A DNA stretch of 16,330 nt from a virus (Duplodnaviria > Heunggongvirae > Uroviricota > Caudoviricetes): positions 1-16,330 of the IMG/VR virus record IMGVR_UViG_2684622620_000010; one strand, given 5' to 3'. Each line of letters begins with the position of its first letter. Positions within the stretch are counted from its first letter, which is position 1. The notes below the pieces were generated by a model, which did not search any database, was not told where the DNA came from, and saw nothing but the letters and a program-made list of their open reading frames with translations. Positions 6,043 through 16,330 of this stretch are shown piece after piece. The translations under genes were made by a program, and so were the position numbers.

Positions 6043-8265
6043 ATGACCATTTTTAACGGCTTGTTAGAAGCGAAAAAAGGCGCGCTCAAAAACGGCGCGA
6101 TCCCGGCGCTGGCCATCGCCATCGACGCCCCTAACAAAAAAGTTGCCGAGAACATCATCATCGGCAAATTGTGGGAAGCCTACCCTGACCACGGCGACAA
6201 CTATTTCAAACCTAAAATCTGGGAAGATGCCCCGGGCCAACCGCGCCCAGGCGTTGGTGAGTTTGATGAGACGTTCGCCACAGAACACAGTTTTGATGGC
6301 GAAAAATGGGTAGTTAACACCCCCGTTGTAGATAGCGGTTCAGCAGATATCGCACAGGTTAACGACCTGATGAAACTGCCGGCTCGTGAACGATTCGCCG
6401 CCGTTCTGCTGTTCAGCCACGACGCCAACGAAGTCAACAGTGAATTGCTTGCGCAGACGCGTGAATACCTGGAGATGCTCGACAACAGTGATACTGACAG
6501 TGAGGATGAGGTTGACGCGTTTAACCGCATCGTTCTTGATGCCATGGTGGCGTGTAAGCCCATCGAGTACATGCATATTGCTGGATTGAATAATCTGGTA
6601 CATGCAATTTTGGCAAGTTGCGATACCCAGGAACAAAACCCGACCAGTTGGACTATCTCCAAATTTATAAAAAAATGGGTAGAGAATCCCGGTAAACGCG
6701 ATGAAATGCTGCCGGAGGTAAAACCAGAAACAGCATCCGCACGTCCTTACAAACAGACTCACGCTACACTGGATCGTGAAATTGCCTGCGCTCTGTTACC
6801 CGTTGGCCCGGAAAAAATCACCCCCAGCGTCCTGAAAGCGGCAGACGAAATAATCAGCCAGGATCGGGAGGATTTTAAACGCTGGTCAATGGCCTTGCGC
6901 ACAACGGATCAGATCCTTTCCTATGACCGGGCATCCGTATTCGGTGTCGTTCAGAGTGCCCCCGCAAAAGACACGTACCATTTCCCGCAATCCCTGCGCA
7001 GTCACATCGACAACTGGCTGCAAGCTAACGGGCAGCGTGATGCAAATGCTGTTGAAGAGAAGCCAAAGGACGCAGCACCAAAGGGTGATGTAAAAGTCAC
7101 CAACCACGGCGGCGGGCGATTCTCAATCGATGGGATGATGTCAGAACCCCCCTCAAATCAGGGCGAAAAAAGCGAAGCAGCAAATGCTGGAGAGCGTAGT
7201 TTGCAGCAGTTGCGTGAGCAGTTTGTCACGCCCCGCCATGTGTATGGCGTACCAGAAAATAACGCCGTATCACAGCGGGAATCTGTAACTGTTATCCTGG
7301 AAGAAGAGACTCCTCCACAAGAAAAACTTAGCGAGCAGGTAAAAGACCTGGTGCAGAACGTTGACGCTCTGGTTGAGCGGATCCATACCGAGGAAAAAAC
7401 TGCATCAATTCGCATGGAGCATTATCTGTCAGCAATGAATGATGACCAGAGCAAAGCAAATTTGGCTATCTGGAATCGCGTTCAGCGGACCGATCCTGCG
7501 TATGTCACACATAATGATTACGGTGCAGGACTGCACTCCATACGCGCACAATATATTTTGATGCGTGCGACTGAAGTGCTGGGAATGGAAGGCATTGGTT
7601 GGGGAGTTGAAATCAAGGAGGAGCGAGTGGATCGCGGTGTGCCATTACTTGAACCTATACAGGATCAGACAGGGAAAATTATTGGACAAAAACCTGTCAG
7701 GGATGCTGACGGCTCCCTGTTCTGCCTGTCAGTACACACCATCCGGATAGATCTCTGGTACGTCTGGAACGGAGTGAAAGGATTTATTCCGTCATATGGC
7801 CACACGGATTACATATCAAAAAATAACAAAGGGGCACTGGTAATGGAAAAAGAGGCCTCCAAAAAGTCTCTTACTGATGCCACCGTCAAAGCACTATCTC
7901 ATCTGGGATTTGCGGCAGATGTTTATATGGATATGCATAACGATAGTGCCTACACCGCCGAGCTGAATACAGAATACGGTATTAAGAAGGCAAGCGAGAA
8001 AGCAGAGGATGCTACCCGACTGCGTGAAGAACTGGATGAACGACTCTCAGGTGTTGCCAAAACACTGGCTGCAGCCGTAACCCCCAATGAAGTTAATAAA
8101 GTCTATGGCCTTATTGCGCGGGAAGTAGAAGTTCACCGCAAAGCCGCAGAATCCAAAGGTGATAAGGAGTATTCAACTTATCTTGGTTCGCGCCTGCGCC
8201 GTTTGAATGAAATCAAAACCGAACGCCTCGCCGCTCTCGCCGCCGCACAGGAGCAAACAGCATGA
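6043..8265 (+). CDS. Large recombination protein with a C-terminal Rad52/Erf-superfamily annealing domain and an unassigned N-terminal half
   Basis: 740-aa ORF. Residues about 585-625 (YISKNNKGALVMEKEASKKSLTDATVKALSHLGFAAD) resemble the Rad52 N-domain signature ([29 protein letters not shown]). Residues about 335-460 look like a low-complexity linker; the first ~330 aa match nothing I recognise. Start has SD GAGGAAAGACC then ATG. Confidence 0.6.
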   Translation: MTIFNGLLEAKKGALKNGAIPALAIAIDAPNKKVAENIIIGKLWEAYPDHGDNYFKPKIWEDAPGQPRPGVGEFDETFATEHSFDGEKWVVNTPVVDSGSADIAQVNDLMKLPARERFAAVLLFSHDANEVNSELLAQTREYLEMLDNSDTDSEDEVDAFNRIVLDAMVACKPIEYMHIAGLNNLVHAILASCDTQEQNPTSWTISKFIKKWVENPGKRDEMLPEVKPETASARPYKQTHATLDREIACALLPVGPEKITPSVLKAADEIISQDREDFKRWSMALRTTDQILSYDRASVFGVVQSAPAKDTYHFPQSLRSHIDNWLQANGQRDANAVEEKPKDAAPKGDVKVTNHGGGRFSIDGMMSEPPSNQGEKSEAANAGERSLQQLREQFVTPRHVYGVPENNAVSQRESVTVILEEETPPQEKLSEQVKDLVQNVDALVERIHTEEKTASIRMEHYLSAMNDDQSKANLAIWNRVQRTDPAYVTHNDYGAGLHSIRAQYILMRATEVLGMEGIGWGVEIKEERVDRGVPLLEPIQDQTGKIIGQKPVRDADGSLFCLSVHTIRIDLWYVWNGVKGFIPSYGHTDYISKNNKGALVMEKEASKKSLTDATVKALSHLGFAADVYMDMHNDSAYTAELNTEYGIKKASEKAEDATRLREELDERLSGVAKTLAAAVTPNEVNKVYGLIAREVEVHRKAAESKGDKEYSTYLGSRLRRLNEIKTERLAALAAAQEQTA

Positions 8266-8831
8266 GCACCGCTATCGCTATTGCAAAAGAATACGCCAGC
8301 CTGATTGACCTGCTGGAAACCTCCGACGAACTGACGCCAGAGATGATCGCCGACACACTTGAAGGTATGGAAGGAGAACTGGGAGACAAACTGGACGCCA
8401 TGATGGTCATCTGCCGCAATTTACAGGGCAATGCCAGTACCTGCGCTGAAGAAATGTCTCGCCTGGCTACCCGTAAGACGTCCTTTGAAGGCAAGGAAAA
8501 AGCAATTCGGAAGCATATGCTCGCCTGCCTGCAAGCTGCTGGCCTGGATAAACTAAAAACCGCAAAAAACACATTTACTGATGCACAGGGGGCTATCCGG
8601 GTAATTATCGATAGCAAAGATAAGATCCCGGATGAGTATGAAGGCGTGTCACTTGTTGATGTAGAAACGGTTATTACACCAAACAAGCGAGCCATTAAAG
8701 AAGTGATTGAATCTGCGGAGGCGGTTGCCGCCGAAATACTGGCGCGTGGAGAAACACCACCAGCCGAGTTATTAAACCCGGTACCAGGCGCACATCTGGA
8801 ACGCGGCGAACGTTCGCTGAGGGTACGCTAA
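8262..8831 (+). CDS. Siphovirus Gp157-like protein (recombination-module accessory protein)
   Basis: 189-aa acidic coiled-coil protein (EMIADTLEGMEGELGDKLDAMMVICRNL...) resembling the Gp157 family that often follows Erf/Sak genes. ATGA overlap with the upstream gene. Confidence 0.55.
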   Translation: MSTAIAIAKEYASLIDLLETSDELTPEMIADTLEGMEGELGDKLDAMMVICRNLQGNASTCAEEMSRLATRKTSFEGKEKAIRKHMLACLQAAGLDKLKTAKNTFTDAQGAIRVIIDSKDKIPDEYEGVSLVDVETVITPNKRAIKEVIESAEAVAAEILARGETPPAELLNPVPGAHLERGERSLRVR

Positions 8832-9013
8832 TGCTTAAACTCACATTAAAGCGTGGTGACGCGGTTCACCTGGTACTTGCCGATGGTACCAATGGCATTA
8901 TTGAAGCACGGAGTCGCTGCGAACTTGGGCTACACCTGCCAGAAAACATTAAGGTCACGCGGGAGAAATCGGCATTCCCCCCACCAGAACTGATTACGCC
9001 TAATCAGAAATAA
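8831..9013 (+). CDS. CsrA-like small protein (60 aa)
   Basis: An ungapped alignment with E. coli CsrA (61 aa) keeps M1-L2-x-L4-T5, G9, G33-x3-P37 and V42-x-R44-E45, plus conservative hydrophobic matches. Start overlaps the upstream stop (TAATG). Confidence 0.45.
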   Translation: MLKLTLKRGDAVHLVLADGTNGIIEARSRCELGLHLPENIKVTREKSAFPPPELITPNQK

Positions 9014-10551: not shown

Positions 10552-10641
10552 TGGCGGAGAGAGGGGGATTTGAACCCCCGGTAGAGTTGCCCCTACTCCG
10601 GTTTTCGAGACCGGTCCGTTCAGCCGCTCCGGCATCTCTCC
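10552..10641 (-). tRNA. serU: tRNA-Ser (anticodon CGA)
   Basis: Reverse complement reads GGAGAGATGCCGGAGCGGCTGAACGGACCGGTCTCGAAAACCGG...GGGGGTTCAAATCCCCCTCTCTCCGCCA: 7-bp acceptor stem, anticodon loop CTCGAAA, long variable arm, T-loop GTTCAAATC, encoded CCA. Confidence 0.9.
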
Positions 10642-11632: not shown

Positions 11633-11708
11633 TCCTCTGTAGTTCAGTCGGTAGAACGGCGGACTGTTAATCCGTATGTCACTGGTTCGAGTCCAGTCAG
11701 AGGAGCCA
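11633..11708 (+). tRNA. tRNA-Asn (anticodon GUU)
   Basis: TCCTCTGTAGTTCAGTCGGTAGAACGGCGGACTGTTAATCCGTATGTCACTGGTTCGAGTCCAGTCAGAGGAGCCA: 76 nt, anticodon loop CTGTTAA, T-loop GGTTCGAGTCC, encoded CCA. Which of the identical asn tRNA gene copies this is cannot be told from the sequence. Confidence 0.92.
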
Positions 11709-12020: not shown

Positions 12021-15020
<3,000 letters not shown>

Positions 15021-15074
15021 TGAACCGCCCCGGAAATCCTGGAGACTAAACTCCCTGAGAAAGAGGTAAACAGG

Positions 15075-15401
15075 ATGACTAAAAATACTCGTTTTTCCCC
15101 CGAAGTCCGTCAGCGGGCGATTCGTATGGTTCTGGAAAGTCAGGATGAATATGACTCACAGTGGGCGGCAATTTGTTCCATTGCCCCAAAGATTGGCTGT
15201 ACGCCGGAGACTCTGCGTGTCTGGGTTCGCCAGCATGAGCGGGATACCGGGGGCGGTGATGGTGGGCTCACCAGCGCTGAACGTCAGCGTCTGAAAGAGC
15301 TGGAACGTGAAAATCGTGAACTGCGCCGCAGTAACGATATCCTTCGCCAGGCTTCCGCTTATTTTGCGAAGGCGGAGTTCGACCGCCTCTGGAAAAAATG
15401 A
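15075..15401 (+). CDS. IS3-family transposase OrfA (copy B)
   Basis: Identical 108-aa translation to 55-381. Confidence 0.9.
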
Positions 15402-16288
15402 TGCCACTGCTGGATAAGCTGCGTGAGCAGTACGGGGTCGGACCGGTATGCAGCGAACTGCATATTGCCCCGTCAACGTATTACCATTGTCAGCAACAGC
15501 GACATCATCCGGATAAACGCAGTGCCCGTGCGCAGCACGACGACTGGCTGAAGAGAGAGATACAGCGCGTATACGATGAAAATCATCAGGTGTACGGTGT
15601 GCGTAAAGTCTGGCGTCAGTTGTTACGGGAAGGAATCAGGGTGGCCAGATGTACAGTGGCACGTCTCATGGCGGTTATGGGACTTGCCGGTGTTCTCCGG
15701 GGTAAAAAGGTCCGTACGACCATCAGCCGGAAAGCCGTTGCCGCAGGCGACCGCGTAAACCGTCAGTTCGTGGCAGAACGACCTGACCAGCTGTGGGTGG
15801 CTGATTTTACTTACGTCAGCACATGGCAGGGCTTCGTCTATGTGGCGTTTATCATTGATGTGTTTGCCGGATACATCGTGGGGTGGCGGGTCTCATCGTC
15901 TATGGAAACGACATTCGTGCTGGATGCGCTGGAGCAGGCGTTGTGGGCCCGTCGTCCGTCTGGCACCATCCATCACAGCGATAAAGGCTCTCAGTATGTG
16001 TCACTGGCCTATACGGAGCGACTAAAAGAAGCCGGATTACTGGCATCAACAGGGAGTACAGGCGACTCGTATGACAACGCGATGGCTGAGAGCATCAATG
16101 GTCTTTACAAAGCGGAGGTAATACACCGTAAGAGCTGGAAAAACCGTGCAGAAGTGGAACTGGCCACACTAACGTGGGTGGACTGGTATAACAATCGACG
16201 ATTGCTGGGAAGGCTGGGCCATACTCCTCCGGCAGAAGCAGAAAAAGCTTATTATGCTTCCATCGGAAACGATGATCTGGCAGCCTGA
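15398..16288 (+). CDS. IS3-family transposase OrfB (copy B)
   Basis: Identical 296-aa translation to 378-1268. Confidence 0.9.
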
Positions 16289-16330
16289 GTTCACAGATAA
16301 AACACTCTCCAGGAAACCCGGGGCGGTTCA

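What the first reader, a model, noticed from the sequence alone, without database searches (positions are those of the whole stretch)
6043..8265. Unusually large (740-aa) annealing protein: Rad52-like domain fused behind a ~330-aa unassigned N-terminal domain
The Rad52-type signature lies at residues ~585-625 (nt ~7795-7920). Phage Erf/Sak/Rad52-like annealing proteins are typically ~200-300 aa. Here the annealing domain is preceded by a low-complexity linker (~335-460) and an N-terminal domain with no motif I recognise. The N-terminal half could be a fused exonuclease partner, a host-nuclease inhibitor or an unrelated effector. No separate exonuclease gene is present in the operon.
Basis: partly seen in the sequence, partly recalled or inferred. 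Interest (0 to 1): 0.65.

Follow-up and report, generated by a model that had tools for sequence, protein, structure and literature searches.

The report
Rad52-type annealase on RecE-like scaffold
This 740-residue E. coli prophage protein joins a Rad52-type DNA-annealing domain to the non-catalytic N-terminal scaffold otherwise carried by RecE-type exonucleases, so the database label "exonuclease" is very probably wrong and the fusion offers a new way to study the unexplained RecE N-terminus.

Summary
ORF 6043-8265 is one intact 740-aa gene, conserved full length in E. coli, Salmonella, Klebsiella and a sequenced phage.

- **C-terminus.** Residues ~470-640 have a Rad52 fold. The six best PDB matches of the model are all human RAD52, and the signature helix lies at 604-626.
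- **Linker.** Residues ~336-455 are acidic, variable and predicted disordered.
- **N-terminus.** It is not unassignable. Residues 14-330 align collinearly with the non-catalytic N-terminus of YdfE/RecE-type prophage "exonucleases" (Pfam YdfE_N; RecE residues 260-370).
- **Interchangeable C-terminal domains.** That scaffold carries a PD-(D/E)XK 5'-3' exonuclease in RecE, a DEDDh 3'-5' exonuclease in YdfE-type proteins, or this Rad52-type annealase.
- **No nuclease.** I found no nuclease fold or motif in the protein. The fused-exonuclease idea is not supported.
- **Partner.** The constant partner is a translationally coupled Sipho_Gp157 (Mu Gam-like) gene, present in 78 of 80 related viral loci. 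No cognate exonuclease gene appears in the operon or in the intact prophage.
- **Mosaicism.** The Rad52 core is swapped as a cassette between lineages.

Most likely this is an annealing recombinase that works with an end-protection protein. The function of the N-terminal scaffold remains unknown. I rate it a new variant of a known kind, of moderate interest.

The parts
6031..6035 (+). Shine-Dalgarno GAGGA, 7 nt upstream of the ATG at 6043
   Evidence: Read directly from the sequence.
6043..8265 (+). Whole gene: 740-aa fusion protein (YdfE/RecE-type N-terminal scaffold, disordered linker, Rad52-type core, helical tail)
   Evidence: PHROG 2489 matches full length. 100% identical in 7 E. coli genomes. 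Full-length homologues exist.
6043..6357 (+). N1 module, aa 1-105: small alpha/beta domain of the YdfE_N type (Pfam PF27430)
6358..6726 (+). N2 module, aa 106-228: acidic helical bundle, present once or twice in family members
   Evidence: AlphaFold predicts helices 114-222. Some homologues (P0004, P0008, P0029, P0031, P0072) carry a ~100-aa insertion resembling a second copy. Net charge is -10.
6727..7047 (+). N3 module, aa 229-335: helical module shared with the middle of RecE (RecE residues ~260-370)
   Evidence: NCBIfam RecE model PRK09709 matches aa 230-335 to model positions 260-370 at E 5e-13. PHROG 607 and 2082 match at E 2e-23 and 7e-21. BLASTP against K-12 RecE aligns 242-307 with 263-332. 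AlphaFold pLDDT is 82-93.
7048..7407 (+). Linker, aa 336-455: acidic, variable, predicted disordered, ending in a long helix from about aa 429
   Evidence: pLDDT is below 50 for aa 336-438. Homologues differ by indels here. Composition is E-rich.
7408..7962 (+). Rad52-type single-strand-annealing core, aa 456-640 (fold match about 470-640)
   Evidence: The six top Foldseek hits against the PDB are human RAD52 N-terminal domain (E 3.4e-5 to 1.8e-4, probability 1.00, ~180 columns). hhalign against RAD52 residues 46-176 gives E 1.8e-4. The exhaustive search finds 2364 relatives, mostly stand-alone. 15 of 53 relatives hit Pfam Rad52_Rad22.
7852..7920 (+). Rad52 signature helix, aa 604-626 (EASKKSLTDATVKALSHLGFAAD)
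   Evidence: The family-invariant residues lie here. It aligns with RAD52 residues 141-162. The pairs are K607-K144, T611-T148, D612-D149, K616-R153 and G622-G159 (RAD52 numbering checked).
7963..8262 (+). C-terminal helical tail, aa 641-740 (three long helices)
   Evidence: AlphaFold predicts helices 635-676, 681-705 and 708-739 at pLDDT 70-88. The tail tracks the N-terminal lineage rather than the core type in mosaic relatives.
8262..8831 (+). Partner gene: Sipho_Gp157 / Mu Gam-like protein (189 aa). Its ATG overlaps the fusion gene's TGA (ATGA), with an AGGAG 7 nt upstream
   Evidence: Pfam PF05565 at E 2.5e-28. PHROG 253 'Mu Gam-like end protection' at E 4.4e-46. The overlap was read from the sequence. 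A homologue lies at 78 of 80 related viral loci, directly after the fusion gene in 77 of 79 cases.

Best explanation
The gene encodes a modular phage recombination protein, not an exonuclease.

Shown by fold and profile:
- The C-terminal core (aa ~470-640) is a Rad52/Sak-type single-strand-annealing domain.
- The N-terminal 335 residues are the non-catalytic scaffold found on YdfE- and RecE-type prophage proteins. A ~120-residue acidic, predicted-disordered linker joins it to the core.
- The same scaffold carries interchangeable C-terminal domains: a 5'-3' PD-(D/E)XK exonuclease, a 3'-5' DEDDh exonuclease, or this annealase.

Inferred from the family:
- The core would form oligomeric rings that bind ssDNA in a basic groove and pair complementary strands without ATP.
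- The protein is made from the early-left operon. It is translationally coupled to a Gp157 (Mu Gam-like) protein that would shield DNA ends from host nucleases.
- No cognate exonuclease is encoded, so the ssDNA substrate must come from host nucleases or from replication gaps.

Unknown: what the scaffold does. My best guess is that it is a docking or tethering module. It would bring whichever C-terminal domain it carries to the same site, such as DNA ends, a second DNA molecule or a host factor.
For: C-terminal domain.
- In the AlphaFold model its pLDDT is 75-88. The six best PDB matches of the model are all human RAD52 N-terminal domain, at probability 1.00.
- hhalign of 53 stand-alone relatives against RAD52 aligns residues 46-176, and the signature helix is in register.
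- 15 of those 53 relatives hit Pfam Rad52_Rad22.
- Stand-alone relatives in Pseudomonas phages are annotated as RAD52-like annealing proteins.

N-terminal scaffold.
- BLASTP gives 5e-22 over aa 14-330 against the N-terminus of the PPompW_699 YdfE-type protein. That protein's C-terminus is Rv2179c-like DEDDh (Pfam 4.8e-68).
- RecE-family models match aa 230-335.
- P0146 and P0147 combine Pfam Exonuc_VIII (the RecE N-terminus) with the Rad52-like C-terminus.
- RecE itself and SPN3UB gp44 combine Exonuc_VIII with a PDDEXK domain.

No nuclease.
- Pfam gives no hit at all.

Partner and context.
- Gp157 follows at ATGA. A homologue is present at 78 of 80 viral loci.
- The same pair occurs with stand-alone annealases in phages PMG1 and PseuP_222.
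- No RecE-type or DEDDh homologue lies within 4 kb at those 80 loci.
- No recurrent exonuclease family appears among 101 neighbouring proteins.
- None is annotated in the intact prophage.

Selection for the fusion.
- The architecture spans about 26 clusters at 50% identity.
- Two core types (about 37% and about 78% identical to this one) are exchanged on otherwise similar scaffolds and tails.
Against: - No member of this fused family has been tested biochemically as far as I could find. Annealing activity is inferred from fold alone.
- The protein itself does not reach any Pfam threshold for Rad52_Rad22.
- The hhalign probability is only 49%.
- A profile search of PDB sequences found nothing.
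- Two RAD52 DNA-binding positions are not basic here: K152 aligns with V615, although the family consensus there is K, and R156 aligns with S619.
- Rad52-family proteins such as DdrA protect DNA ends rather than anneal.
- The 'Gam-like' function of Gp157 is an annotation, not a tested property.
- The neighbourhood screen would miss an exonuclease encoded far away or of an unknown type. One search lists only the 25 commonest of 44 families.
- In this window the prophage is a remnant cut by insertion sequences, so the gene may not be expressed in a useful context.
Confidence: 0.66

Rival explanations
1. One-polypeptide two-component recombinase. The N-terminal half would be the exonuclease that makes the ssDNA, and the C-terminal half would anneal it.
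For: - Databases call the family 'exonuclease' (PHROG 2489; RefSeq 'exonuclease family protein').
- No separate exonuclease gene is present.
Against: - The label comes from similarity to the non-catalytic part of RecE (residues 260-370). The nuclease domain is at 564-866 (review PMC11611040).
- Pfam finds no nuclease family. The NCBIfam RecE model scores 48 bits against a cutoff of 1269.
- In RecE and YdfE-type proteins the same scaffold sits in front of a separate nuclease domain.
Confidence: 0.04
2. Artefact: two genes joined by a sequencing or assembly frameshift, or a decaying pseudogene in a defective prophage.
For: - The prophage in this window is truncated by insertion sequences.
- The linker has low complexity.
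Against: - The 740-codon frame is identical in 7 independent complete genomes.
- It is kept full length at 45-77% identity in other genera and in a sequenced phage.
- It is kept at all 80 IMG/VR loci.
- Linker indels always preserve the frame.
- No plausible internal start with a Shine-Dalgarno was found at aa 330-480.
Confidence: 0.01
3. The Rad52-fold domain works in DNA-end protection or as a RecA cofactor, like DdrA or as proposed for lactococcal Sak, rather than as an autonomous annealase. Together with Gp157, the cassette would be an end-protection or anti-RecBCD module.
For: - It is always paired with a Gam-like gene and never with an exonuclease.
- Two basic groove positions of RAD52 are not conserved.
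- Sak and Sak3 have been reported as RecA cofactors, as cited in PMC3945230.
Against: - The signature helix and most invariant residues of annealing Rad52 and Sak proteins are kept.
- Many phage annealases lack a neighbouring exonuclease (PMC2896510).
Confidence: 0.12
4. The N-terminal scaffold captures or inhibits a host nuclease or helicase, as P22 Abc2 does with RecBCD. The host enzyme would then make the ssDNA and load the tethered annealase, replacing a phage exonuclease.
For: - There is no cognate exonuclease.
- A long flexible linker suits tethering.
- The scaffold is conserved across interchangeable DNA-processing C-terminal domains.
- Full-length RecE gains linear-linear recombination activity over the nuclease domain alone (PMC11611040).
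Against: - The same scaffold is carried by RecE and YdfE-type proteins, which have their own nucleases.
- A Gam-like gene is already present for host-nuclease control.
- No structural or sequence match to any known inhibitor was found.
Confidence: 0.12

Closest known systems
Human RAD52 N-terminal domain and phage Sak (Rad52/Rad22 family, Pfam PF04098)
   Same: The predicted fold of aa ~470-640 matches, with about 180 aligned columns and 17-18% identity. The signature helix is in register and keeps the K144, T148, D149, R153 and G159 equivalents. Stand-alone relatives reach PF04098.
   Different: - This protein does not itself reach PF04098.
- The K152 and R156 equivalents are V and S.
- It carries a 455-residue N-terminal extension and a 100-residue helical tail that RAD52 and Sak lack.
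- Annealing activity has not been tested.
RecE (exonuclease VIII) of the Rac prophage
   Same: - Same overall plan: a long non-catalytic N-terminal region, an acidic disordered linker, then a C-terminal DNA-processing domain.
- Module N3 (aa 230-335) is homologous to RecE 260-370.
- Some family members carry the true RecE N-terminal Pfam domain (P0146, P0147) or the RecE linker motif GEFVxGISDPNDPKWV.
- Same position in the early-left operon next to xis/int.
   Different: - There is no PD-(D/E)XK nuclease domain.
- A Rad52-type annealase sits in its place.
- The downstream partner is Gp157, not RecT.
YdfE / ECO26_1771-type 'putative exonuclease' of Qin-like and PPompW prophages
   Same: The N-terminal 330 residues align collinearly at 26% identity, E 5e-22. 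Both share the Pfam YdfE_N domain.
   Different: Its C-terminal domain is an Rv2179c-like DEDDh 3'-5' exonuclease. No Gp157 gene follows it.
Stand-alone Rad52-like + Gp157 cassette of Pseudomonas phages (PMG1_00054/00053, PseuP_222, F116p19)
   Same: The annealase core and tail are homologous at 31-34% identity. The same downstream, overlapping Gp157 gene is present.
   Different: Those proteins are about 248 aa and have no N-terminal scaffold or linker.
Lambda Red (Exo, Beta, Gam) and P22 Erf/Abc recombination modules
   Same: Each is an early-operon phage recombination module built around an ATP-independent annealase plus a function that deals with host nucleases.
   Different: There is no Exo-type partner. 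The annealase belongs to the Rad52/Sak branch, not Red-beta/RecT or Erf (no Pfam hit). The Gam analogue belongs to the Gp157 / Mu Gam-like family.

Membership tests
Rad52/Sak-type single-strand annealing proteins | Rad52 N-terminal-domain fold (beta-hairpin, beta-sheet, long helix) | tested here: met
   In the Foldseek search of the AlphaFold model against the PDB, ranks 1-6 are all human RAD52 (E 3.4e-5 to 1.8e-4, probability 1.00, TM 0.45-0.57 on the target). The model's pLDDT in this region is 75-88.
Rad52/Sak-type single-strand annealing proteins | Signature helix with conserved basic and polar residues lining the ssDNA groove (RAD52 K141-G159) | tested here: inconclusive
   The equivalents of K144, T148, D149, R153 and G159 are invariant in the family. 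K152 aligns with V615 (family consensus K) and R156 with S619.
Rad52/Sak-type single-strand annealing proteins | Match to Pfam Rad52_Rad22 (PF04098) above threshold | tested here: not met
   This protein gives no Pfam hit even at E up to 1. The link is transitive only: 15 of 53 stand-alone relatives hit PF04098 at E up to 0.01, best 4.5e-5.
Rad52/Sak-type single-strand annealing proteins | Ring oligomers, ssDNA binding, ATP-independent annealing | not testable with these tools
   This needs purified protein, electron microscopy and annealing assays.
RecE / exodeoxyribonuclease VIII | C-terminal PD-(D/E)XK 5'-3' exonuclease domain (Pfam DUF3799 region of RecE) | tested here: not met
   DUF3799 is found in K-12 RecE and SPN3UB gp44 but not here. 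The C-terminus has a Rad52 fold instead.
RecE / exodeoxyribonuclease VIII | Full-length match to the NCBIfam equivalog PRK09709 | tested here: not met
   The score is 48 bits against a cutoff of 1269. Only aa 230-335 match.
YdfE_N-containing prophage proteins (Pfam PF27430) | N-terminal YdfE_N domain | tested here: met
   PF27430 is precomputed on all full-length homologues and is named YdfE_N. BLASTP against the K-12 YdfE pseudogene gives 1e-8 and against the PPompW YdfE-type protein 5e-22. The model itself is not in the local Pfam copy, so the test is indirect.
Red-beta/RecT and Erf annealases | Match to the RecT or ERF Pfam families | tested here: not met
   Pfam gives no hit. No PHROG of those families appears in the list.
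Known anti-phage defence proteins (PADLOC) | Match to any PADLOC model | tested here: not met
   There are no hits for the fusion protein, Gp157 or the two small flanking ORFs. The ZorA hit in NCBIfam (E 0.064, in the linker) is noise.

The most novel reading that the evidence does not exclude
The YdfE/RecE-type N-terminal scaffold is a common docking or tethering module. Phages would use it to deliver interchangeable DNA-end-processing C-terminal domains (5'-3' exonuclease, 3'-5' exonuclease or Rad52-type annealase) to one shared target, such as a DNA end, a second DNA molecule or a host replication or repair factor. On this reading the protein is a self-targeting annealase that needs no cognate exonuclease. 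The long-unexplained N-terminus of RecE, which boosts linear-linear recombination, would then have the same function.
Probability: 0.3. Interest if true: 0.7.

Novelty: new variant of a known kind. Interest (0 to 1): 0.5.

Why it matters
- **Annotation.** A widespread enterobacterial prophage family is labelled 'exonuclease' or 'hypothetical'. It is very probably an annealing recombinase. That affects surveys of phage recombinases and predictions of how prone a phage genome is to mosaic exchange.
- **RecE N-terminus.** The N-terminal region of RecE (residues before the nuclease domain at 564-866) has had no known function for decades, although full-length RecE is preferred for linear-linear cloning. 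The same scaffold on three different DNA-processing domains argues that it acts independently of the catalytic domain. It also gives three natural contexts in which to test it.
- **Tools.** The annealase plus Gam-like pair, with no dedicated exonuclease, is a compact candidate recombineering module native to E. coli, Salmonella and Klebsiella.

Tried and rejected
- **Pfam.** The local Pfam scan of the whole protein at E up to 1 gave nothing, because the relevant model PF27430 is newer than the local copy.
- **PDB by sequence.** phmmer with the protein gave nothing. A 53-sequence profile of the C-terminal domain gave only coiled-coil noise.
- **Phage DNA.** megablast against phage genomes gave no match.
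- **RecE profile comparison.** hhalign of the family against K-12 RecE was weak (30% probability, 78 columns). I rely on the RecE-family HMMs and on bridging sequences instead.
- **Word-indexed search.** The homologue search with the C-terminal domain returned only 11 proteins. The exhaustive search replaced it.
- **Defence function.** PADLOC gave nothing.
- **Internal start.** I found no in-frame start with a plausible Shine-Dalgarno between aa 330 and 480 that would express the annealase alone.
- **Clamp-binding motif.** I considered one in the linker (QLREQF). It fits the consensus poorly and is not conserved, so I rejected it.
- **Literature.** One search was wasted because 'RecE' matched 'receptor'. 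Searches for PF27430, YdfE, Gp157 with Gam, and fused Rad52-like recombinases found no description of this architecture.
Full report
**What the window is.** It is E. coli chromosome: the early region of a lambdoid prophage integrated beside tRNA-Ser, mtfA and yeeJ.
- The 13.7 kb between the two terminal repeats is 99.7-100% identical to contiguous chromosome in several complete genomes.
- On the minus strand lie a Cro-like gene, a CII/YdaT-like gene, a replication initiator with iterons, and a DnaB-type helicase cut short at 260 aa.
- On the plus strand lie a CI-like repressor and then the early-left operon. It holds a 106-aa ORF, the 740-aa ORF, a Sipho_Gp157 gene, a 60-aa ORF, a DUF4224 excisionase and a tyrosine integrase.

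- ORF 6043-8265 is an uninterrupted 740-codon frame with a good ribosome-binding site.
- It is identical in seven complete E. coli genomes.
- Full-length homologues of 710-757 aa occur at 45-77% identity in Salmonella, Klebsiella, Raoultella and in Stenotrophomonas phage BUCT708, whose whole early region is syntenic with this one.
- At the 80 best IMG/VR loci the host ORF is always 396-881 aa. Indels in the linker keep the frame. A frameshift artefact is excluded.

**The C-terminal domain.**
- An exhaustive HMMER search with residues 465-740 finds 2364 cluster representatives. Most are stand-alone proteins of 200-380 aa. Only 26 of the best 150 are 660 aa or longer with the domain at the C-terminus.
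- Fifteen of 53 stand-alone relatives reach Pfam Rad52_Rad22.
- A profile of those 53 aligns with human RAD52 residues 46-176 (E 1.8e-4). The signature helix is in register.
- In the AlphaFold model of the full protein this region has pLDDT 75-88. The six best Foldseek hits in the PDB are all human RAD52 N-terminal domain at probability 1.00. The next hits drop to E above 0.04.
- Caveats: the protein itself misses every Pfam threshold. Two basic groove residues of RAD52 are not conserved.

**The N-terminal region.** It is not orphan.
- PHROG and NCBIfam RecE-family models match residues 230-335 to RecE positions ~260-370.
- Precomputed Pfam assigns PF27430, YdfE_N, to the family.
- Residues 14-330 align collinearly (E 5e-22) with the N-terminus of the PPompW_699 'putative exonuclease'. 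That is the intact form of the K-12 Qin pseudogene ydfE.
- The PPompW protein continues through a RecE-like linker motif into an Rv2179c-like DEDDh 3'-5' exonuclease domain.
- RecE and SPN3UB gp44 have Exonuc_VIII at the N-terminus and a PDDEXK domain at the C-terminus.
- Two representatives (P0146, P0147) join the genuine Exonuc_VIII domain to the Rad52-like C-terminus. Two of the 80 viral loci do the same.
- So one family of scaffolds carries three alternative C-terminal domains.
- The scaffold modelled alone has mean pLDDT 78.9. It consists of a small alpha/beta domain (1-92) and two helical bundles (110-222, 240-330).
- The review PMC11611040 states that the RecE N-terminal domain has unknown function, and that full-length RecE improves linear-linear recombination.

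**Context.**
- The Gp157 gene starts at the fusion gene's stop (ATGA) behind an AGGAG.
- A Gp157 homologue is present at 78 of 80 related viral loci. It lies directly after the fusion gene in 77 of 79 cases.
- The same pair exists with stand-alone annealases in phages PMG1 and PseuP_222 and in a Providencia prophage.
- No RecE-type or DEDDh homologue lies within 4 kb at the 80 loci.
- Pfam scans of 101 neighbouring proteins from 36 dereplicated loci show integrases and repressors but no recurrent exonuclease.
- The intact prophage in strain TUM11353 has none annotated.

**Mosaicism.**
- Segment-wise identities show two types of Rad52 core, about 37% and about 78% identical to this one. They are exchanged independently of the scaffold and of the helical tail.
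- P0002 is 93-98% identical in the scaffold, 38% in the core and 79% in the tail. The Klebsiella proteins show the reverse pattern.
- The fusion is therefore maintained while its annealing core is swapped. This argues for selection on the architecture and for a separate role of the tail.

**Interpretation.**
- The best-supported reading is a Rad52-type annealase tethered by a flexible acidic linker to a non-catalytic YdfE/RecE-type scaffold. It would work with a Gam-like end-protection protein and depend on host nucleases or replication gaps for its ssDNA.
- Shown: the fold, the homologies, the architecture and the gene linkage.
- Inferred: annealing activity, the role of Gp157, and any role of the scaffold.
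- The fused-exonuclease idea is not supported.
- I found no paper describing this architecture in the searched literature.
- The family is already present in sequence databases under uninformative or misleading names. I therefore rate it a new variant of a known kind, of moderate interest.

Noticed in passing
window 1-1310 and 15021-16330: Two identical 1310-bp copies of an IS3-family insertion sequence lie in direct orientation exactly at the two ends of the window. Each has a 108-aa orfA and a 296-aa orfB, and from memory resembles IS629. The terminal inverted repeats are at 1286-1310 and 15021-15045. The 13,710 bp between the copies is contiguous chromosome, without the IS, in other E. coli genomes. 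The window could therefore be an IS-bounded composite unit, or a 15,020-bp circle read past its start.
   Followed up: partly
window 1308-2090 (-) and 12208-15069 (+): The insertion sequences truncate two genes. The prophage DnaB-type helicase is 260 aa here against about 462 aa in intact relatives. The inverse-autotransporter adhesin gene yeeJ is 953 aa here. The prophage in this window is thus a remnant with no late genes.
   Followed up: partly
window 2714-2803: Two tandem 45-nt units lie inside the replication-initiator gene (2087-3187, minus strand). Each contains TTGGGTCA...TTGACC iteron-like half-sites. This looks like a lambda-style origin within the O-like gene.
   Followed up: no
L006 3366-5833 (phage PPompW_699); K-12 ydfE, L013 5079-5999: The YdfE-type 'putative exonuclease' combines the same N-terminal scaffold, a RecE-like linker motif (GEFVAGISDPNDPKWV plus a CxxC...CxxC stretch) and an Rv2179c-like DEDDh 3'-5' exonuclease. 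No annealase or Gp157 gene follows it. K-12 ydfE is its IS2-truncated remnant.
   Followed up: partly
alignment A1 columns ~240-350 (homologues P0004, P0008, P0029, P0031, P0072): Some family members carry an extra helical segment of about 100 aa between N2 and N3. It resembles a second copy of N2 (motif LS..DR..YVLLF...). The scaffold therefore seems to be built from repeatable modules.
   Followed up: no
alignment A1 linker columns ~540-580: Most homologues share a short conserved linker motif, VTDxQAxQARETLNxMGYGVYA, inside the otherwise variable, predicted-disordered linker. In this protein it is degenerate (QLREQFVTPRHVYGV, aa ~396-410). It may be a short binding motif.
   Followed up: no
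window 10552-10641 (-) and 11633-11708 (+): tRNA-Ser(CGA) lies directly after the integrase gene and is the likely attachment site. tRNA-Asn(GTT) lies downstream of mtfA.
   Followed up: partly
window 5692-6012 and 8831-9013: Two small conserved ORFs of unknown function (PHROG 2479, 106 aa; PHROG 2482, 60 aa) flank the annealase-Gp157 pair. They keep these positions in the Salmonella and Stenotrophomonas relatives and may belong to the module.
   Followed up: partly
phage records PMG1_00054 (L005) and several Vibrio phages: Stand-alone members of this Rad52-like family are also annotated 'exonuclease' in GenBank. This looks like the same annotation error spreading from the RecE-scaffold fusions.
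   Followed up: no
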